Of a DNA stretch of 44,891 nt, positions 4,413-21,136 are shown piece by piece; the first letter of the stretch is position 1; every line of letters begins with the position of its first letter. The notes under the pieces were generated by a model. The model saw only the letters and a program-made list of their open reading frames with translations. It did no database searches and had not been told where the DNA came from. The position numbers were made by a program, and so were the translations under genes. This stretch comes from a virus (Duplodnaviria > Heunggongvirae > Uroviricota > Caudoviricetes), in IMG/VR virus record IMGVR_UViG_2802429240_000008. One strand, written 5' to 3'.

Positions 4413-4470
4413 AAAAAGGGCGGCAGAGCAGTCACGGAGTAAAACTGATTCCGCCAAACGCCACCAGAAA
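4413..4470 (-). ncRNA. dicF: DicF small RNA (53 nt, 4418-4470) plus 3' U-tract
   Basis: Reverse complement of 4418-4470 is TTTCTGGTGGCGTTTGGCGGAATCAGTTTTACTCCGTGACTGCTCTGCCGCCC, about 2 mismatches from the E. coli K-12 DicF sequence as I remember it, followed by TTTTT; located downstream of small dicB-operon-like ORFs. Confidence 0.8.
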
Positions 4471-6116: not shown

Positions 6117-6524
6117 TTATTGATGTTTGTTACGTTTGCGAGCTTCTAGTAGCTCGGTGAATAGGCGATTAAAATTCTCAACGCGGGCACGGAGTTCGCT
6201 GATTTGTGCTTGCTGCTCTGATTTTGGAAGTGCGCGATACAATCGCAACATCTCCAACTCATCTTCCGATAAGTCTAAGGCGCTGTTGAGTGCAACTGGT
6301 GGATCTGGTGTTTTATCCTCGTCACCAAACAGTATCCAAGTTGGTGAACATTGCAATACCTCAGCCAGGCGATGCAAATTTTGCCCGCGCGGGGCTGTAT
6401 GGTCGCTTTCCCATAGTGAAATTGATGAGCCAGATACGCCAGCAGCTTTGCTTAAATCGTTTTGACTTAAACCAACCTGTTTGCGTCTTTCTCTAATTCG
6501 TTGACCTAAAGTTTTCTCGTTCAT
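6117..6524 (-). CDS. dicA: DicA-like HTH (XRE family) prophage repressor, 135 aa
   Basis: N-terminal HTH (LGQRIRERRKQVGLSQNDLSKAAGVSGSSISLWE) and C-terminal LQCSPTWILFGDEDK...ELRARVENFNRLFTELLEARKRN closely resemble E. coli DicA as I recall it; same length; divergent from a Cro-like gene. Confidence 0.85.
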   Translation of the reverse strand: MNEKTLGQRIRERRKQVGLSQNDLSKAAGVSGSSISLWESDHTAPRGQNLHRLAEVLQCSPTWILFGDEDKTPDPPVALNSALDLSEDELEMLRLYRALPKSEQQAQISELRARVENFNRLFTELLEARKRNKHQ

Positions 6525-6601
6525 ATTTAGATATCTTAATAACCCTTGACTTGAGATTCCTTGAGTGATTACTATTGAGAAAACTCAACTTTGGAGGGGT
6601 G
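6525..6601. promoter_or_regulatory. Divergent promoter / operator region between the dicA-like and dicC-like genes
   Basis: Contains TTGACT (6546-6551) and the inverted repeat TTGAGAAAACTCAA (6575-6588) just upstream of the dicC-like start. Confidence 0.4.
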
Positions 6602-11248: not shown

Positions 11249-11371
11249 CCTGACCTGAGGCATTCACTACGGTAGGAATTGCGATGGCGGTGGCGCTGGT
11301 GGTGCATTCGATTTGCCGATGGGGATAAAAACGGTTTGCGGGAAAAGGAGAGTTAAGTAGAATTGCTGCGG

Positions 11372-11516
11372 GTGCTTGAGGCTATCTGCCTCGGGCATGA
11401 ACACCAACGGCAGATAGATAAAAGCCCCACCCGACTATAAATCGAAGTGAGGCCCCTATATGCTCGTCACATATAGATTGCCTCTTACGGACCGAAAGGT
11501 CAAGGAGAAGCAGGCT
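11372..11516 (+). promoter_or_regulatory. hok mRNA 5' leader with in-frame upstream start (mok-like, ATG 11460); expected location of an antisense Sok-like RNA
   Basis: GCTTGAGGCTATCTGCCTC resembles the 5' end of hok-family mRNAs as I recall it; 8-bp inverted repeat tatctgcc/ggcagata; in-frame ATG at 11460 gives a 70-codon ORF. Confidence 0.4.
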
Positions 11517-11672
11517 ATGAAGCAGCAAAAGGCGATGTTAATCGCCCTGATCGTCATCTGTTTAACCGTCATAGTGACGGCACTGGTAACGAGGAAAGAC
11601 CTCTGCGAGGTACGAATCCGAACCGGCCAGACGGAGGTCGCTGTCTTCACAGCTTACGAACCTGAGGAGTAA
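11517..11672 (+). CDS. hokD: Hok/Gef family type I toxin (51 aa)
   Basis: MKQQKAMLIALIVICLTVIVTALVTRKDLCEVRIRTGQTEVAVFTAYEPEE: single TM helix and conserved C-terminal Hok motif; appears to match HokD (RelF) from memory; AAGGAGAAG RBS. Confidence 0.85.
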   Translation: MKQQKAMLIALIVICLTVIVTALVTRKDLCEVRIRTGQTEVAVFTAYEPEE

Positions 11673-16633: not shown

Positions 16634-16946
16634 TTTACGGGACAAAAAAAATTCCTTAATACTGATAACTTGGCGCACTATACACACGTTCCTGAAGAAA
16701 GCTATAGTTTTTTGATGGGGTTGAAGATGGCTGGATGTCTAAAATAAACATTGCTTCATATGTTCAACTATGCGTTAATGATTGCGTCGGTTTGAAGAAC
16801 AGACGATATACGAAGTAGTTTACTAAAGCAGTTCTCATTTCAGGTGTTATTCACTTATTCCTTCTTTGAGTCTCTCCAATTAAGTACGAAGTCGTTTCTG
16901 TTATACAAACCATTTATGCCGAAAGGCTCAAGTTAAGGAATGTAGA

Positions 16947-17162
16947 ATGTCAAATAAAATGACTGGTTTAGTAAAATGGTTTAACGCTGATAAAGGTTTT
17001 GGCTTTATTTCTCCTGTTGATGGTAGTAAAGATGTGTTTGTGCATTTTTCTGTGATTCAGAATGATAATTATCGAACCTTATTTGAAGGTCAAAAGGTTA
17101 CCTTCTCTGTAGAGAGTGGTGCTAAAGGTCCTGCAGCAGCAAATGTCATCATTAATGATTAA
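16947..17162 (+). CDS. cspB: Cold-shock protein, CspA family (CspB-like, 71 aa)
   Basis: [53 protein letters not shown]...: canonical cold-shock domain; AAGGA RBS. Confidence 0.9.
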
Positions 17163-17443
17163 AATTCATAGTTTGTCTGTATACGATAACGAAGAAGGCT
17201 GATGCCTGAGTGGAGATACAGACAGAGTGGTGAATATTGGATCTCTTTAATAAAGAGTAAGGAGGTCCAATACATGAAACAATGGCCAGCATATTTGGTA
17301 ATAACTTAATCAGGAAAAGTATGCTAACCATTGTGGTGAAGTGCAGGTTTGCTGCATGAATAGTTTTACAGCAGAAGCTAACTGCTGGCATAGCAAAACA
17401 AAGTGCGTAAGTGGATGACTCTCACAAAAAGCACCACAATATT

Positions 17444-17525: not shown

Positions 17526-17696
17526 TCAGGCTACAGCTTTAAGATTTGTCTGGAATACTTTGTTGCAATGAGGGCAGATCAAAAGGGCACCTTTTTGTAC
17601 TCTTGAAAAACTGTGTTCTGACTCTTGGGTGCAGTTTGGGCAGGAACATTTAACGAGATAATTACGGCGTGATTTTGAGTCTTTACGTTCTGACAT
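17526..17696 (-). CDS. Small zinc-ribbon protein (56 aa)
   Basis: Internal ATG with AGGAAAAG RBS; CSCPNC...CPHC cysteine pairs. Confidence 0.5.
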   Translation of the reverse strand: MSERKDSKSRRNYLVKCSCPNCTQESEHSFSRVQKGALLICPHCNKVFQTNLKAVA

Positions 17697-17914
17697 AGGC
17701 TTTTCCTGTATAAATGGCCGTATACAGTACACTAAATATGAAAACATTTCTCGTATTATTAATTAATATATGATTTTCTTTAAAATAATTAACCACATTT
17801 TTAATGTGTATGTTTTTTTAGCGCCGTTGAGAACAACGTGTGCTGTAAAAACTACCCCGTAGACTCCGATATTTTCAAACATATTGCACCATCCGTGTAC
17901 ATCGGGGTGAGGAT

Positions 17915-18130
17915 ATGAAATCAATGGATAAGTTAACAACAGGTGTTGCCTATGGCACATCGGCGGGTAATGCTGGTTTCTGGGCATTGCAGTTACTCGA
18001 TAAAGTAACTCCGTCACAGTGGGCTGCAATCGGTGTGCTGGGTAGCCTGGTTTTTGGCCTGCTGACGTATCTGACAAATCTTTATTTCAAGATTAAAGAA
18101 GACAGGCGTAAGGCTGCGAGAGGAGAGTAA
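17915..18130 (+). CDS. Holin (EssD/EssQ-like, 71 aa)
   Basis: [71 protein letters not shown]: two hydrophobic segments and charged C-tail; resembles DLP12/Qin holin as I recall it; possible dual start (M1/M4). Confidence 0.8.
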
Positions 18131-18134
18131 TCCA

Positions 18135-18686
18135 ATGACTCAAGACTATGAACTGGTTGTGAAAGGAGTCCGTAATTTTGAGCATAAAGTTACGGTAACT
18201 TTAGCCTTACAGGACAAAGAACGCTTTGACGGTGAGATTTTTGAGCTGGATATCACTATGGATCGTGTTGAAGGTGCTGCACTGGAGTTTTATGAGGCAG
18301 CAGCCAGAATGAGAATCAGACAGGTATTCCTGGATGTTGCTGCCGGGTTATGTGAAGGGGATGAGCAGTCGCCGGAAAAGCGCCCCATAATTTTAGAGGC
18401 GCAGAATGTGTGGATAACCTACAAAGGAAAGCTACCGGGAAGAATTACTGGTTCTCTGAAGACGCCACCGACGGCATTGCGGTCAGAAAAAGATGATATT
18501 GAATCGCTCATTGAAAAACTGGAGGGCAGCGTCGCTGATCTGAATAAAAAATTGTCGGTGCTTATTCCTTCTGAAGATGAAAAAAAACGCCGCGATGAGC
18601 AGTTTGCGGCGTTTTACGATTATTGCATTGAAGTTACTCGCAGGAATTTTGTGAAGATTTTTGAGGAGGGTAAATCTCTTCAGTAA
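18135..18686 (+). CDS. Hypothetical protein (183 aa) inserted between holin and endolysin
   Basis: ATG 4 nt after the holin stop with AGGAGAG RBS; hydrophilic, predicted helical C-terminal half; no recognisable domain. Confidence 0.6.
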   Translation: MTQDYELVVKGVRNFEHKVTVTLALQDKERFDGEIFELDITMDRVEGAALEFYEAAARMRIRQVFLDVAAGLCEGDEQSPEKRPIILEAQNVWITYKGKLPGRITGSLKTPPTALRSEKDDIESLIEKLEGSVADLNKKLSVLIPSEDEKKRRDEQFAAFYDYCIEVTRRNFVKIFEEGKSLQ

Positions 18687-18894
18687 GCTTAATGGCGGAC
18701 GCTGCAATTAATTCAGGAAGGTCCGCAAGGTCATCTGTCAGTGGATATGATGAAAAATCGGCGGCAGTTCTGTTAAGAAGCGCTTTAACTAATTCCTTTT
18801 CCTTCTCCGGCAACAAGTTGATTAGAGCTACGACTGCTTGCCTGAGTGCGATTAAATCAGCAAAAGTTTGTTTTGGTAGATTTGTGTAATCCAT
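18634..18894 (-). CDS. Hypothetical protein (86 aa), convergent with and overlapping the preceding gene
   Basis: ATG at 18892-18894 with GAGG RBS 7 nt upstream; 3' end overlaps 18135-18686 by about 52 nt. Confidence 0.45.
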   Translation of the reverse strand: MDYTNLPKQTFADLIALRQAVVALINLLPEKEKELVKALLNRTAADFSSYPLTDDLADLPELIAASAIKLTEEIYPPQKSSQNSCE

Positions 18895-19007
18895 AGTCAC
18901 CTCTGTGTTTATCAGATTGACATCCTCCTCCCGCCAGTGCCCATCACTGGCGAGGTAAGATTTAACATATCCGGGGATTTGAAGCCGATAAATCCTGATA
19001 AATATCC

Positions 19008-19541
19008 ATGAACGTAAAAATCAGATACAGCCTGTCGGCTGCTGTTCTGGCTCTGATTGCCGCCAGTGCTCCTGCCCCTGACATTCTCGATCAGTTTCTG
19101 GATGAAAAAGAGGGGAATCACACCACTGCATACCGCGATGGCTCCGGCATATGGACCATCTGTCGGGGAGCAACGATGGTGGACGGTAAACCTGTTATTC
19201 CGGGAATGAAACTGTCGAAGGAAAAATGCGCCCAGGTTAACGCCATTGAGCGGGATAAGGCGCTGGCATGGGTGGAGCGCAATATAAAAGTTCCACTGAC
19301 CGAGCCACAGAAAGCCGGTATCGCGTCATTCTGTCCCTATAACATTGGCCCCGGTAAGTGTTTTCCGTCGACGTTTTATAAGCGGCTGAATGCCGGTGAT
19401 CGTAAAGGCGCATGCGAGGCGATTCGCTGGTGGATAAAGGACGGTGGACGTGATTGCCGCATTCGTTCAAATAATTGTTACGGTCAGGTTATTCGTCGTG
19501 ACCAGGAAAGCGTATTAGCCTGTTGGGGGATAGAGCAGTGA
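19008..19541 (+). CDS. SAR-endolysin (T4 lysozyme-like muramidase with N-terminal signal-anchor-release domain)
   Basis: N-terminal [14 protein letters not shown] hydrophobic segment; catalytic motif [20 protein letters not shown] (E..D..T spacing); stop overlaps the Rz start. Confidence 0.85.
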
Positions 19542-20002
19542 GCAGAGTTGCCGCGATTATTTATGCTCTGGCTATCTGCATCATCGTCTGCCTGTCATGG
19601 GCTGTTAATCATTACCGTGATAACGCCATCGCCTACAAAGAACAGCGTGATAAAAAAGTCAGTGAGCTGAAGCAGGTGACCGCCACCATTACTGACATGC
19701 AGCAGCGCCAGCGTGCTGCTGATGCACTCGATGCTAAATACACGAAGGAGTTAGCTGATGCGAAAGCTGAAAATGATACTCTGCGTGATGATGTTGCCGC
19801 TGGTCGTCGTCGGTTGCACATCAAAGCAGTCTGTCAGTCAGTGCGTGAAGCCACCACCGCCTCCGGCGTGGATAATGCAGCCTCCCCCCGACTGGCAGAC
19901 ACCGCTGAACGGGATTATTTCACCCTCAGAGAGCGGCTGATATTGATGCAAAAACAACTGGAGGGGGCACAGCTATATATTAGCGAGCAATGCCTCAGAT
20001 AA
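19538..20002 (+). CDS. Rz (i-spanin)
   Basis: GTG start overlapping the endolysin stop (GTGA); N-terminal TM segment [17 protein letters not shown] followed by a predicted coiled-coil periplasmic domain. Confidence 0.8.
19758..19940 (+). CDS. Rz1 (o-spanin lipoprotein) embedded in Rz in the +1 frame
   Basis: AAGGAG RBS; signal peptide with lipobox LVVVGC; proline-rich mature region ([15 protein letters not shown]). Confidence 0.8.
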
Positions 20003-20419
20003 AAAACCGGCCAAGGATAATCCGCTGAAGATTCGCCGGCGGCAAAAGAATGCCAATACATGAGCATAGGCGATTACCTGTGCTCATGCAATGTATTGCC
20101 TTTATGTGGATTGTGGGCAATAGATTTCTGATCTATTTCTGTGCGCCGTATCGTCGCCGTATTCCCCCATTAACAGAGACCGTAGCCCGACGGGGAACTC
20201 CTTCTGCGCGAGTGTGCGGGAATAATCAAAAACGATGCACACAGGGTTTTTAGCGCGTTTATGGTTCGCGGGTTTGCCCCTCATGCTCGCCAGTCCTGTG
20301 CGGGGATGGAAGAAACAGGACACTTACACAGATTCTTGTGGGCACGATGCTATGCCTTTCTGGATTATTCCGATGCCATTCATGCAGGGCGTTGTATCAG
20401 ACGTTCGTCAGAGCTGTCA

Positions 20420-20475
20420 GGCTGACGGGTCCTCCCGGAGGGGTGGCCTGCCACGGGGCGGGAGCGGCGCGGAAA
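20420..20475 (+). other. Candidate cos site (cosQ/cosN-like) about 185 bp upstream of the small terminase gene
   Basis: GACGGGTCCT and ACGGGGCGGGAGCGGCGCGG resemble the lambda cosQ/cosN region (ACGGGTCCT...GGGCGGCGACCT) as I recall it; lambda-like spacing to the Nu1-like start. Confidence 0.45.
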
Positions 20476-20641
20476 AAGGCTAGTTTTTGAAATTTCATTC
20501 GTCATCACCACAACTGTAATGAATTGATATTCAAGAAATTTTATTTTTCCGGTGTCGATTTTGATTGTTTTTTGTTCATCACTAACACCATTTATCTAAA
20601 GTTGTTCGCAAGATGCATGTTTAAAACATTCCGGAGCGGGT

Positions 20642-21136
20642 ATGGATCGAGAGTTAAAAAATCTGACGCTGAATATCAGTCAACTGGCAGCACTGTCAGG
20701 TGTACATCGCCAGACTGCTGCGGCAAGGCTGCAAAATCTACCCGTTGCAGGGGGGCATGAAAGCAACCTCAAGCTTTATCGGGTGGTTGATATTGTGTCG
20801 GCATTTCTGGCATTACCACCGCCGGTTGCAGAAGGCGAAATGGACGCGCATGAGCGCAAAGCCTGGTATCAGTCTGAACGTGAGCGTCTTAAGTTCGAAC
20901 AGGAAACGGCGCAACTCATTCCGGCCAGTGATGTCAGACGGGAGTTTGCCATCTGGGCAAAAGCGGTCGTGCAGGTGCTGGAGACATTACCGGATATTCT
21001 GGAACGTGACTGCGGTCTGCAGCCTGCCGCTGTGAGCCGTGTTCAGTCCATTATTGATGATCTGCGCGATCAGATAGCCCTGCGGGTGACCGAAGCAGGT
21101 GCGGATGATGAGGAGGAATTACAGCAGGAGGAGTAA
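20642..21136 (+). CDS. Terminase small subunit (Nu1-like, 164 aa)
   Basis: N-terminal HTH-like segment (LNISQLAALSGVHRQTAAARL), acidic C-terminus; stop overlaps the large terminase start (TAATG). Confidence 0.7.
   Translation: MDRELKNLTLNISQLAALSGVHRQTAAARLQNLPVAGGHESNLKLYRVVDIVSAFLALPPPVAEGEMDAHERKAWYQSERERLKFEQETAQLIPASDVRREFAIWAKAVVQVLETLPDILERDCGLQPAAVSRVQSIIDDLRDQIALRVTEAGADDEEELQQEE

What the first reader, a model, noticed from the sequence alone, without database searches (positions are those of the whole stretch)
18135..18894. Two unknown genes, convergent and overlapping, inserted between holin and endolysin
Lysis cassettes are normally compact. Here a 183-aa ORF (strong RBS, starting 4 nt after the holin stop) and an oppositely oriented 86-aa ORF (GAGG RBS) occupy 760 bp between S and R and overlap at their 3' ends by about 52 nt. 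Convergent overlap suggests antisense interplay. Candidate functions are lysis regulation or an accessory, defence or toxin-antitoxin-like cargo. K-12 Qin has one small gene (ydfR) at this position, as I recall, so the locus appears to tolerate insertions.
Basis: partly seen in the sequence, partly recalled or inferred. Interest (0 to 1): 0.55.

Follow-up and report, generated by a model that had tools for sequence, protein, structure and literature searches.

The report
YdfR-family gene plus opposite-strand small gene
Between the holin and endolysin genes of this E. coli prophage sit a longer version of the known but uncharacterised YdfR (DUF1327) late gene and a small opposite-strand gene that appears to have its own promoter and terminator; both are real and conserved, their functions are unknown, and the arrangement is fairly ordinary for lambdoid phages.

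Summary
A 183-aa ORF (18135-18686, +) starts 4 nt after the holin stop. An 86-aa ORF (18634-18894, -) converges on it, with a 53-nt overlap.

- **The + ORF is not an unknown insert.** It is the resident YdfR/DUF1327 gene (Pfam 5e-41), the homologue of K-12 Qin ydfR. Its first 72 residues are 85% identical to the YdfR fragment reported to bind the RNase E catalytic half. A coiled-coil extension follows.
- **The - ORF is a real, narrow family (phrog_2572).** It is an acidic predicted three-helix protein with no informative sequence or fold match.
- **A Salmonella homologue (about 49% identity) exists.** It lies after Rz rather than between S and R. It also runs against the late operon and overlaps the 3' end of a late-strand ORF.
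- **Non-coding signals are conserved between the two genera.** These are a promoter-like TTTATC-N17-TATNNT, a structured leader, an SD, and an identical hairpin stem after the stop codon.

The slot is polymorphic. Alternative forms carry an unrelated 90-aa minus-strand gene, a 296-aa YdfR, or only K-12's 103-aa YdfR.

The best reading is a late accessory protein plus a separately transcribed moron-type gene. Function is untested. Interest is moderate to low.

The parts
17915..18130 (+). Class II (P21-type) holin S, essQ/essD-like, 71 aa
   Evidence: Pfam PF04971 at 4.4e-34. Annotated essQ/essD in matching E. coli genomes.
18121..18125 (+). Shine-Dalgarno AGGAG for ORF183, inside the end of the holin gene
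   Evidence: Read directly from the sequence. It lies 9 nt before the ATG at 18135.
18135..18686 (+). ORF183, a YdfR/DUF1327-family late gene (long form)
   Evidence: Pfam PF07041 at 5.2e-41 over residues 1-112. phrog_2091 at 2e-108 over the full length. It is 183 aa in 63 of 74 related loci and 176 aa in 7.
18135..18470 (+). DUF1327 domain (aa 1-112). Residues 1-73 are predicted as three beta-strands plus a helix. Residues 74-112 are conserved but modelled as disordered.
   Evidence: AlphaFold2 pLDDT is 65-87 for residues 1-70 and below 50 for 70-122. Residues 1-72 are 61/72 identical to K-12 YdfR. Homology with the 114-aa form ends at 18470.
18471..18686 (+). C-terminal extension of ORF183 (aa 113-183), predicted as two long helices or a coiled coil
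   Evidence: Helices at 122-143 and 147-181 with low confidence. In-frame indels separate the 176-, 183- and 211-aa forms. The last 35 aa are 43% identical to a stand-alone 73-aa Salmonella ORF. Global alignment z is 5.4.
18584..18615 (.). Hairpin AAAACGCCGC-N12-GCGGCGTTTT flanked by an A-run and a T-run. It is terminator-like on the minus strand, 19-50 nt after the ORF86 stop, and lies inside ORF183 codons 150-161.
   Evidence: The minus-strand RNA folds at -14.6 kcal/mol and is followed by a U-run. The plus strand folds at -19.4 kcal/mol. The AACGCCGC/GCGGCGTT stem is identical in the Salmonella homologue loci, with 5 of 12 loop differences. The 296-aa form, which has no minus ORF, lacks it through a 15-nt deletion.
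18634..18894 (-). ORF86, a small acidic (pI 4.6) predicted three-helix protein of family phrog_2572
   Evidence: phrog_2572 at 1.2e-53. AlphaFold2 mean pLDDT is 72.8 with three helices. Salmonella homologues P0201 and P0202 have E-values of 6e-14 and 2e-11. It is intact with ATG in 65 of 73 loci. The sense frame scores best in the E. coli-Salmonella codon analysis.
18634..18686 (.). 53-nt 3'-end overlap of ORF183 and ORF86
   Evidence: Coordinates. Only 2 of 53 sites vary across 49 unique sequences. A comparable 59-nt overlap exists in Salmonella.
18900..18903 (-). Shine-Dalgarno GAGG for ORF86, with a 5-nt spacer to the ATG
   Evidence: Read directly from the sequence. The Salmonella homologue has AAGGA-N6-GTG.
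18895..18965 (-). Structured leader of the putative ORF86 mRNA. It includes the perfect palindrome CGCCAGTG-N5-CACTGGCG at 18932-18952.
   Evidence: MFE is -29.4 kcal/mol, z is -5.7, and 0 of 200 shuffles fold as well. The core GTG(A/G)TGGG-CACTG is conserved in Salmonella. The majority haplotype has C to T at 18951.
18964..18992 (-). Sigma-70-like promoter candidate for ORF86: -35 TTTATC (18992-18987), 17-nt spacer, -10 TATGTT (18969-18964)
   Evidence: The hexamers and spacing are the same in 7 E. coli ORF86 and ORF90 loci, while the spacer varies. Salmonella has TTTATC/CTTATC-N17-TATTGT although no endolysin gene adjoins it there. The site falls below the generic scan threshold. Activity is untested.
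18994..19005 (-). Conserved block ATATTTATCAGG directly upstream of the promoter candidate. It abuts the R start codon on the other strand.
   Evidence: Identical in E. coli and in both Salmonella loci.
19008..19541 (+). SAR-type endolysin R (rrrQ-like), followed by Rz (19523-20002) and embedded Rz1 (19758-19940)
   Evidence: Pfam PF00959 at 2.6e-24. ORF list and annotation.

Best explanation
The 760 bp hold two separate things.

**1. A late, holin-coupled YdfR/DUF1327 gene.** ORF183 has an N-terminal beta-beta-beta-alpha domain. This domain is the part of K-12 YdfR reported to bind the catalytic half of RNase E and to co-purify with RNA. Here it is fused to a coiled-coil tail. I infer a cytoplasmic late accessory protein acting on RNase E or RNA metabolism during lytic growth, not a lysis effector.

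**2. A compact minus-strand unit of about 420 bp (about 19005 to 18584).** It encodes an acidic 86-aa three-helix protein. The unit consists of a weak sigma-70-like promoter next to the R start codon, a structured leader, an SD, the ORF, and a hairpin plus U-run terminator buried in the coil-coding part of ORF183. It behaves like a moron. It is present or absent between otherwise related phages, and it sits at a different site in Salmonella prophages. It always points against late transcription.

I infer that ORF86 is expressed independently of Q-dependent late transcription, probably in the lysogen. I also infer that it is shut off by convergent late transcription after induction. The 3' overlap largely follows from its terminator and 3' end lying inside the late-strand ORF.

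**Shown:** the gene models, family membership, mosaic boundaries, and cross-genus conservation of the unit and its signals.
**Inferred:** promoter and terminator activity, timing of expression, the link to RNase E, and any phenotype.
For: **ORF183**
- Pfam and PHROG membership.
- 61/72 identity to the K-12 YdfR fragment. PMC13232886 reports that this fragment binds Rne 1-597 by two-hybrid and pull-down assays and that YdfR co-purifies with RNA.
- A 4-nt spacing from the holin gene.
- Holin-DUF1327 linkage in all loci inspected.

**ORF86 as a real gene**
- Salmonella homologues at 41-50% identity.
- A conserved SD and start.
- The sense frame is best in the E. coli-Salmonella codon analysis: pN/pS 0.51, BLOSUM sum 174 against 152 or less, and codon-position identity pos2 > pos1 > pos3.
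- pN/pS of 0.3-0.6 within E. coli.
- AlphaFold2 pLDDT of 73.

**A separate transcription unit**
- Promoter-like hexamers are conserved while the spacer varies, and they are kept in Salmonella in a different neighbourhood.
- The leader folds with z -5.7.
- The hairpin stem is identical across genera and is missing from the 296-aa form, which lacks ORF86.

**Moron-like behaviour**
- Breakpoints lie at about 18470, about 18545-18656 and about 18964-19000 when compared with the alternative forms.
- GC content is 41%, against 52% for R.
- Among 5,426 genomes, the ORF86 form is in 315, the ORF90 form in 1,125 and the 296-aa form in 777.
- The unrelated 90-aa minus-strand gene in the same slot is under clear purifying selection, with pN/pS 0.27-0.44 over 10 pairs.
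- Viable phages (2H10, PhiR63_1, PhiR5_1) carry the arrangement.
Against: - There are no expression data for ORF86.
- The promoter candidate is weak: 3/6 matches in the -35 and 4/6 in the -10. The generic scan did not report it.
- The terminator hairpin has a long 12-nt loop and a modest z of -1.8. Its stem could be conserved through the KRRDE..AA codons of the late-strand ORF rather than for termination.
- The mirrored antisense frame is also open in both genera and scores nearly as well.
- Divergence within E. coli is too low for a decisive dN/dS (12-18 substitutions).
- 8 of 73 loci have a damaged ORF86.
- The RNase E link rests on one paper, on overexpressed and tagged K-12 YdfR. That paper saw almost no transcriptome effect.
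Confidence: 0.45

Rival explanations
1. Both genes are lysis-timing accessories. ORF183 is translated together with the pinholin. ORF86 may tune holin triggering or SAR-endolysin release, for example as a cytoplasmic antiholin-like brake that binds the basic C-terminal tail of the holin.
For: - The genes lie inside the S-R-Rz cassette, and ORF183 starts 4 nt after the holin stop.
- DUF1327 follows a PF04971 holin in every locus examined, and fused holin-DUF1327 gene calls exist.
- The Salmonella homologue of ORF86 is also in the lysis region.
- PMC13232886 cites an envelope-integrity screen that picked up ydfR.
- ORF86 is acidic, while the holin tail is basic.
Against: - Neither protein has a convincing transmembrane segment or signal peptide. 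The maximum hydropathy over a 19-residue window is 0.83 for ORF183 and a borderline 1.62 for ORF86.
- Many functional cassettes lack ORF86, and some carry only a DUF1327 remnant.
- The Salmonella prophage uses a different holin and endolysin.
- ORF86 runs against the late operon, which is unusual for a lysis protein needed late.
Confidence: 0.2
2. The convergent pair is a functional two-gene cassette, such as a toxin-antitoxin-like, superinfection-exclusion, defence or anti-defence module. The coiled-coil late-strand product and the acidic minus-strand product act on each other, and the overlap provides an antisense or transcription-collision switch at induction.
For: - A convergent pair with a 53-59-nt overlap is found in both E. 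coli and Salmonella. The late-strand partner's last 35 aa are 43% identical.
- The overlap is the least variable segment, with 2 of 53 sites varying.
- The distribution is accessory and mosaic.
- Small acidic helical proteins are typical of antitoxins and anti-defence factors (general knowledge).
Against: - There are no PADLOC, Pfam or NCBIfam hits.
- Similarity between the late-strand partners is concentrated opposite the ORF86 3' end and hairpin. It may therefore be a by-product of conservation of that unit.
- In Salmonella the late-strand ORF diverges to about 70% identity while ORF93 stays at 95%.
- The 296-aa form keeps the coil without ORF86.
- No toxicity signal is known. Overexpressing K-12 ydfR did not stop growth, although K-12 YdfR lacks this coil.
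Confidence: 0.15
3. ORF86 is not translated. The conserved feature would be the late-strand sequence itself: a 5' UTR or processing element for R, an RNA structure, or the mirrored + strand ORF at 18692-18889.
For: - The mirrored frame is open in all E. coli alleles and in Salmonella, where it reaches 115 aa. Its pN/pS is as low as that of ORF86 within E. coli.
- The majority haplotype of the 18932-18952 palindrome keeps full pairing only in + strand RNA.
- Nucleotide diversity across 18605-19007 is far below that of the flanking genes.
Against: - The mirrored ORF has no SD. It is Ser/Ala-rich, as expected for the antisense of a real gene.
- Across genera the ORF86 frame has the best substitution statistics and the pos2 > pos1 > pos3 pattern.
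- The SD and start codon are conserved.
- The AlphaFold2 model is a compact three-helix bundle with pLDDT 73.
- In Salmonella the unit is not upstream of an endolysin gene.
- No Rfam family matches the region.
Confidence: 0.1

Closest known systems
YdfR of the E. coli K-12 Qin prophage (P76160; Pfam DUF1327/PF07041)
   Same: It holds the same position directly after the class II holin essQ and before rrrQ. The first 72 residues are 85% identical. This is the segment reported to bind the RNase E N-terminal half (PMC13232886).
   Different: K-12 YdfR is 103 aa and diverges after about codon 70. It lacks the conserved 74-112 segment and the coiled-coil tail. It abuts rrrQ with no minus-strand gene. 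The window's protein is the 183-aa phrog_2091 form.
Morons of lambdoid phages, such as lambda bor, which is transcribed against the late operon next to Rz (own knowledge of Hendrix/Juhala moron concept)
   Same: It is a small accessory gene with an apparent promoter and terminator of its own. It is present or absent between related phages, differs in base composition from its flanks, and points against late transcription in the lysis region. The Salmonella homologue occupies the same kind of post-Rz site as bor.
   Different: It has no sequence or fold similarity to Bor. It has no lipoprotein signal. Promoter and terminator activity and expression in the lysogen are predictions only. Its 3' end is embedded in a late-strand ORF.
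phrog_2411 90-aa gene, the alternative occupant of the same slot
   Same: It has the same slot, orientation and size and is also acidic. It shares the upstream promoter-like block and overlaps the DUF1327 gene's 3' end by 35 nt.
   Different: No significant sequence similarity was found: BLASTP E 0.71 and hhalign probability 3% or less. It is paired with the 114-aa DUF1327 form. It is more common (1,125 genomes against 315) and more diverse.
Salmonella enterica prophage 93-aa gene (P0201 cluster) with its convergent 73-aa partner
   Same: It is a true homologue, with 49% identity and a phrog_2572 match at 3.5e-27. It has the same promoter-like motif, leader core, SD and terminator stem, and the same convergent overlap with a late-strand ORF.
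   Different: It lies between Rz/Rz1 and the small terminase subunit, not between S and R. The late-strand partner is a stand-alone 73-aa ORF rather than the tail of a DUF1327 protein.
Phage-encoded RNase E modulators (T7 gp0.7, T4 Srd, phiKZ Dip; own knowledge)

Membership tests
DUF1327 / YdfR family (PF07041) | Match to the Pfam model above the gathering score | tested here: met
   139.2 bits against a cut-off of 25, E 5.2e-41, residues 1-112.
DUF1327 / YdfR family (PF07041) | Position immediately downstream of a P21-type class II holin in a lambdoid lysis cassette | tested here: met
   The holin is PF04971, and ORF183 starts 4 nt after its stop. Synteny is the same in K-12, CFT073 and other loci.
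DUF1327 / YdfR family (PF07041) | Binding of RNase E residues 1-597 through YdfR residues 1-72 (reported for K-12 YdfR only) | not testable with these tools
   Only sequence identity could be measured: 61/72. The claim comes from PMC13232886.
phrog_2572 (ORF86 family) | Full-length match to the PHROG profile | tested here: met
   E 1.2e-53 over residues 1-86 of 86. The Salmonella homologues also match.
Moron (separately transcribed accessory gene in a phage operon) | Present in some and absent from other closely related phages at the same site, with sharp homology breakpoints | tested here: met
   Comparisons with K-12, the 114-aa + ORF90 form and the 296-aa form. Present in 315 of 5,426 genomes.
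Moron (separately transcribed accessory gene in a phage operon) | Own promoter and terminator | tested here: inconclusive
   The conserved TTTATC-N17-TATNNT motif and the hairpin plus U-run are found across genera. Both are weak by consensus, were not flagged by the generic scan, and have no transcript data.
Moron (separately transcribed accessory gene in a phage operon) | Base composition different from the flanking genes | tested here: met
   ORF86 GC content is 41.4%, against 51.9% for R and 51.7% for Rz. The adjacent DUF1327 gene is also low, at 44%.
Type II toxin-antitoxin module | Two co-directional, co-transcribed small genes, with a recognisable toxin or antitoxin domain | tested here: not met
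   The genes are convergent. There are no TA domains in Pfam, NCBIfam or PADLOC.
Type I toxin-antitoxin module (hok/sok-like) | A small hydrophobic membrane toxin plus an antisense RNA | tested here: not met
   There is no clear transmembrane segment. No Rfam match falls in 17900-19000. The window's sok match is elsewhere, at 11370-11519.
Known anti-phage defence systems (PADLOC-DB v2) | Match to any defence-protein model | tested here: not met
   No hits for either protein at E of 0.1 or less. This excludes only what that 2023 library contains.
Holin, antiholin or spanin lysis proteins | Transmembrane domain(s) or a lipoprotein or signal sequence | tested here: not met
   Maximum Kyte-Doolittle hydropathy over a 19-residue window is 0.83 for ORF183. 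For ORF86 it is 1.62, a borderline amphipathic helix containing D, R, Q and N. AlphaFold2 models are soluble-type folds.
DUF1823 (label used for the ORF86 homologue in the PhiR5_1 and PhiR12 phage records) | Match to Pfam PF08853 above the gathering score | tested here: not met
   13.2 bits against a cut-off of 25, E 0.11. The label in those records appears unjustified.

The most novel reading that the evidence does not exclude
The minus-strand gene and the late-strand coiled-coil ORF that it overlaps form a conserved convergent switch cassette shared by E. coli and Salmonella prophages. The acidic three-helix protein is made in the lysogen and restrains or senses a late function, for example the DUF1327/RNase E axis, the holin, or an incoming phage. 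Q-antiterminated late transcription reads through the embedded bidirectional hairpin, collides with the minus-strand promoter and forms duplex RNA. This removes the protein exactly at induction. That would be a new kind of lysogeny-to-lysis checkpoint or exclusion module built into lysis cassettes.
Probability: 0.12. Interest if true: 0.65.

Novelty: new member of a known kind. Interest (0 to 1): 0.36.

Why it matters
About four fifths of complete E. coli genomes have sequence matching this lysis region, and roughly 40% carry one of the three long or occupied forms of the S-R slot. Even so, neither DUF1327 nor the small minus-strand genes have a known role.

If the DUF1327 domain really engages RNase E late in infection, it would add a widespread temperate-phage factor to the short list of phage RNase E modulators.

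If the 86-aa gene is expressed from the prophage, it is an uncharacterised lysogenic-conversion or exclusion candidate. It is present in uropathogenic and avian-pathogenic strains (CFT073, S88, APEC O1) and in Salmonella.

In practical terms, the analysis gives exact gene models and candidate promoter and terminator coordinates for direct testing. It also flags RefSeq pseudogene calls for the long YdfR forms that look unwarranted.

Tried and rejected
- **Family libraries for ORF86.** Pfam, NCBIfam and PADLOC gave nothing significant for ORF86. The DUF1823 and ABATE hits had E of about 0.1 and were rejected.
- **PDB sequence search.** Nothing for ORF86 at E of 1 or less; for ORF183 only three chance-level matches (E 0.18-0.7) in the coiled-coil tail.
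- **Foldseek.** The search against BFVD found nothing at E below 1. The afdb50 library was unavailable.
- **Homology of ORF86 and ORF90.** It was suspected from an N-terminal motif seen by eye. BLASTP and two hhalign runs did not support it.
- **Large repeat proteins P0203 and P0205 in the HMM search.** Judged to be repeat or low-complexity artefacts.
- **My first reading of the overlap.** I took it for a by-product of a recent recombination junction. I weakened this after finding the same overlap in Salmonella. I then qualified it again, because the late-strand similarity is concentrated opposite the ORF86 3' end.
- **dN/dS within E. coli for ORF86.** It is underpowered, and the mirrored frame mimics it.
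- **Generic promoter and terminator scan.** It found nothing relevant. The hairpin's 12-nt loop is outside its rules.
- **Rfam.** No family matches in the region.
- **Literature.** Searches for DUF1327 or ydfR gave one relevant paper and nothing on the minus-strand gene.
- **Salmonella context.** IMG/VR loci were used instead.
Full report
**Observation.**
- The P21-type class II holin (17915-18130; PF04971, 4e-34) ends with TAA at 18128-18130.
- A 183-codon ORF starts at 18135, 4 nt later, behind an AGGAG at 18121-18125. It stops at 18684-18686.
- On the other strand, an 86-codon ORF runs from the ATG at 18894 to the stop at 18634. It is preceded by GAGG and a 5-nt spacer.
- The two 3' ends overlap by 53 nt.
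- The SAR-type endolysin starts at 19008, followed by Rz and the embedded Rz1.
- The same four-gene arrangement covers at least 80% of a 1.66-kb query in 303 of 5,426 complete E. coli genomes, including CFT073, S88 and APEC O1. It also occurs in the isolated phages 2H10 and PhiR63_1, so viable phages carry it.

**The plus-strand gene.**
- ORF183 is a member of the YdfR/DUF1327 family (PF07041, 139 bits against a cut-off of 25, residues 1-112; phrog_2091 end to end). It is therefore the counterpart of K-12 Qin ydfR, which holds the same position between essQ and rrrQ.
- The DNA alignment shows that K-12 and the window are homologous for only about the first 70 codons. K-12 then has an unrelated 30-codon tail that abuts rrrQ.
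- The family comes in length classes of 103, 114-116, 176, 183, 211, 268 and 296 aa, all from Escherichia or Shigella.
- AlphaFold2 gives a moderately confident three-strand-plus-helix domain for residues 1-73 (pLDDT 65-87). Residues 74-122 are modelled as disordered although their sequence is conserved. Two long low-confidence helices follow at 122-181.
- The only functional data I found are in PMC13232886 (RNA Biol 2026). There, K-12 YdfR residues 1-72 were recovered in a two-hybrid screen. Full-length YdfR interacted with Rne 1-597 and pulled down Rne 1-598. The purified protein carried DNase-resistant nucleic acid. Overexpression barely changed the transcriptome.
- The window's residues 1-72 are 61/72 identical to that fragment.

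**The minus-strand gene.**
- ORF86 matches phrog_2572 end to end (1e-53) but nothing in Pfam, NCBIfam, PADLOC or the PDB.
- A word-indexed search found only E. coli or Shigella relatives at 85% identity or more.
- An exhaustive HMM search of 1.84 billion representatives added two genuine distant homologues. One is a 93-aa protein that is widespread in Salmonella enterica (its cluster is seen on more than 1,000 contigs). The other is an 89-aa metagenomic protein. They are 49% and 41% identical to ORF86.
- AlphaFold2 predicts a three-helix bundle with mean pLDDT 72.8. The protein is acidic, with pI 4.6. Fold searches were uninformative.

**Coding evidence for ORF86.**
- Among 73 related loci, 65 keep an intact ATG-initiated 86-codon ORF. 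Six have ACG at the start, one has a nonsense codon and one a frameshift.
- Within E. coli, pN/pS is 0.3-0.6, but this rests on only 12-18 substitutions. The wobble-mirrored antisense frame scores the same.
- Between E. coli and Salmonella the ORF86 frame has the lowest pN/pS (0.51 uncorrected), the highest BLOSUM sum (174, against 152 for the mirrored frame), and the expected codon-position identities (0.73 at position 2, 0.66 at position 1, 0.53 at position 3).
- The SD and start are conserved: GAGG-N5-ATG in E. coli and AAGGA-N6-GTG in Salmonella.
- I conclude that ORF86 is very probably a real gene. The mirrored + ORF (18692-18889) cannot be strictly excluded.

**A polymorphic slot with sharp breakpoints.** The slot occurs in four forms:

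| Form | YdfR/DUF1327 length | Minus-strand gene | Genomes of 5,426 |
|---|---|---|---|
| a (K-12 Qin) | 103 aa | none | not measured |
| b | 114-116 aa | unrelated 90-aa gene (phrog_2411), convergent, 35-nt overlap | 1,125 |
| c (window) | 176, 183 or 211 aa | ORF86 | 315 |
| d | 296 aa, extra C-terminal domain | none | 777 |

- Homology between the window and form (b) stops at 18470 (codon 112) and resumes at 18964. Homology with form (d) decays between about 18545 and 18656 and resumes at about 19000.
- The 90-aa gene of form (b) is clearly under purifying selection. Its pN/pS is 0.27-0.44 in all 10 pairs, each with 29-51 substitutions, while unrelated frames give about 1. It persists next to a mere remnant of DUF1327 in one locus. 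The slot therefore does host genuine minus-strand genes.
- ORF86 and ORF90 are not detectably homologous.

**The Salmonella comparison.**
- In Salmonella prophages the ORF86 homologue lies between Rz/Rz1 and the small terminase subunit, not between holin and endolysin. It again points against the late operon. It again overlaps, by 59 nt, the 3' end of a late-strand ORF of 73 aa that starts at the Rz stop.
- That ORF's last 35 residues are 43% identical to the last 35 of ORF183 (E 3e-5). Global alignment z is 5.4 and 4.2 for the two Salmonella versions.
- The DNA alignment across genera (64% identity within the ORF) shows conserved non-coding blocks:
  - the ATATTTATCAGG block;
  - a promoter-like TTTATC-N17-TAT(G/T)(T/G)T, in the window with -35 at 18992-18987 and -10 at 18969-18964 on the minus strand;
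  - a leader core, GTG(A/G)TGGG-CACTG;
  - a hairpin AACGCCGC-N12-GCGGCGTT followed by a U-rich run, 19-50 nt after the stop codon (window 18584-18615).
- The hairpin's stems are identical, while 5 of its 12 loop bases differ.
- Across seven E. coli loci of forms (b) and (c), the two promoter hexamers are invariant while the spacer varies.
- The window's leader folds at -29.4 kcal/mol with z -5.7.
- The hairpin is missing from form (d), which has a 15-nt deletion of its left arm.
- Together these features define a compact unit from about 19005 to 18584, with its own apparent start and stop signals.

**Interpretation.**
- The conservative reading is a late YdfR-family accessory gene plus a moron-like minus-strand gene. 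The minus gene's terminator and 3' end lie inside the late-strand ORF, and that produces the overlap.
- Its orientation against a Q-antiterminated operon resembles lambda bor (own knowledge). This suggests expression independent of late transcription, probably in the lysogen, and silencing by convergent transcription after induction.
- A stronger reading, a functionally coupled convergent pair, is not excluded. The evidence for it is soft, because the late-strand similarity is concentrated exactly opposite the ORF86 3' end and hairpin.
- No feature supports a toxin-antitoxin or known defence system.
- A lysis-regulatory role is possible from position alone, but neither protein looks membrane-associated.

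**Caveats.**
- Nothing here measures transcription or translation.
- The promoter is weak by consensus, and the generic scan missed it.
- The hairpin stem could be conserved through the KRRDE..AA codons on the other strand.
- The related loci were retrieved by similarity to ORF86. This biases the set towards intact ORFs and low diversity.
- The majority haplotype of the 18932-18952 palindrome keeps perfect pairing only in + strand RNA. I cannot explain this.

**Verdict.** Both genes belong to catalogued but functionally unknown families (Pfam DUF1327; PHROGs 2091 and 2572). The arrangement is a common polymorphism of lambdoid lysis cassettes rather than an oddity of this window. What is new here is modest. 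The first item is the definition of the minus-strand unit and its conserved signals. The second is its Salmonella counterpart at a different site. The third is the link of the plus-strand domain to the published RNase E interaction.

Noticed in passing
window 18932-18952: There is a perfect 8-bp-arm palindrome, CGCCAGTG-N5-CACTGGCG, between ORF86 and R. In 57 of 73 related loci position 18951 is T. That keeps a G.U pair in + strand (late mRNA) RNA but gives an A.C mismatch in minus-strand RNA. The hairpin might therefore matter for the R transcript, not for the ORF86 leader, or for both.
   Followed up: partly
window 18692-18889 (+): A 65-aa ORF lies exactly antisense to ORF86 in the wobble-mirrored frame. 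It stays open in all E. coli alleles, and its counterpart is open in Salmonella (115 aa). It has no SD and is Ser/Ala-rich, so it is probably a shadow of ORF86. This has not been proven.
   Followed up: partly
window 18374-18400 (minus strand): A second terminator-like hairpin, GCGCCTC-N9-GGGGCGC followed by TTTTCC, can be read on the minus strand inside the conserved DUF1327 codons 79-90. The equivalent was folded in the ORF90-type locus L093.
   Followed up: no
window 18975-19010: The endolysin gene has no recognisable Shine-Dalgarno sequence. Its upstream sequence is A/U-rich (GATAAATCCTGATAAATATCC-ATG). In K-12 rrrQ overlaps the ydfR stop, whereas here R is 321 nt from the previous + strand stop. 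Translational coupling is therefore impossible in this form.
   Followed up: no
L001 (CFT073) 6236-6571; L096 926-1267: RefSeq/PGAP annotates the long YdfR-family gene as a pseudogene ('missing C-terminus'), although the 183- or 211-codon ORF is intact. For the 296-aa form, no feature at all is annotated under the C-terminal domain. These look like annotation artefacts of a short family model.
   Followed up: partly
L003 (phage PhiR5_1) 2707-2967 and the PhiR12 records: The ORF86 homologue is labelled 'DUF1823 containing protein' in these GenBank phage records. The Pfam DUF1823 match is only 13 bits (cut-off 25, E 0.11).
   Followed up: yes
window 4418-4469 (-), 11370-11519 (+), 16786-17227 (+): Three Rfam matches above gathering score lie elsewhere in the prophage. 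They are DicF sRNA (69 bits), the sok antitoxin RNA of a hok/sok-type module (104 bits), and a cspA-type thermoregulator 5' UTR in front of the cspB-like gene at 16947-17162 (151 bits).
   Followed up: no
window 17526-17747 (-): A 73-aa ORF with two CxxC pairs (CPNC...CPHC) sits just upstream of the holin on the opposite strand. It corresponds to the gene annotated ynfU (putative zinc-binding protein) in CFT073.
   Followed up: no
L088 (JAGZPX010000007.1, labelled MAG: Veillonella parvula): A 22.9-kb contig binned as Veillonella parvula carries an E. coli Qin-like holin-ydfR-rrrQ region. Over the matched holin-ydfR-rrrQ segments (about 970 bp) it shows nearly the same percent identities to the window as E. 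coli loci do. This is probably a mis-binned E. coli contig.
   Followed up: no
L097 98-1311; L098 245-1458; L100 1-1427: In several STEC genomes, IS3- or IS66-family elements have inserted into the DUF1327 gene or next to the minus-strand gene. They split or delete DUF1327 and leave the small minus-strand ORF and R in place.
   Followed up: no
window 20642-21136 vs L109 5090-5581: The window's small terminase subunit (DUF1441 type) is clearly related to that of the Salmonella prophages carrying the ORF86 homologue. In Salmonella the cassette sits in the Rz-terminase gap. In the window that gap (20003-20641) holds no copy.
   Followed up: partly
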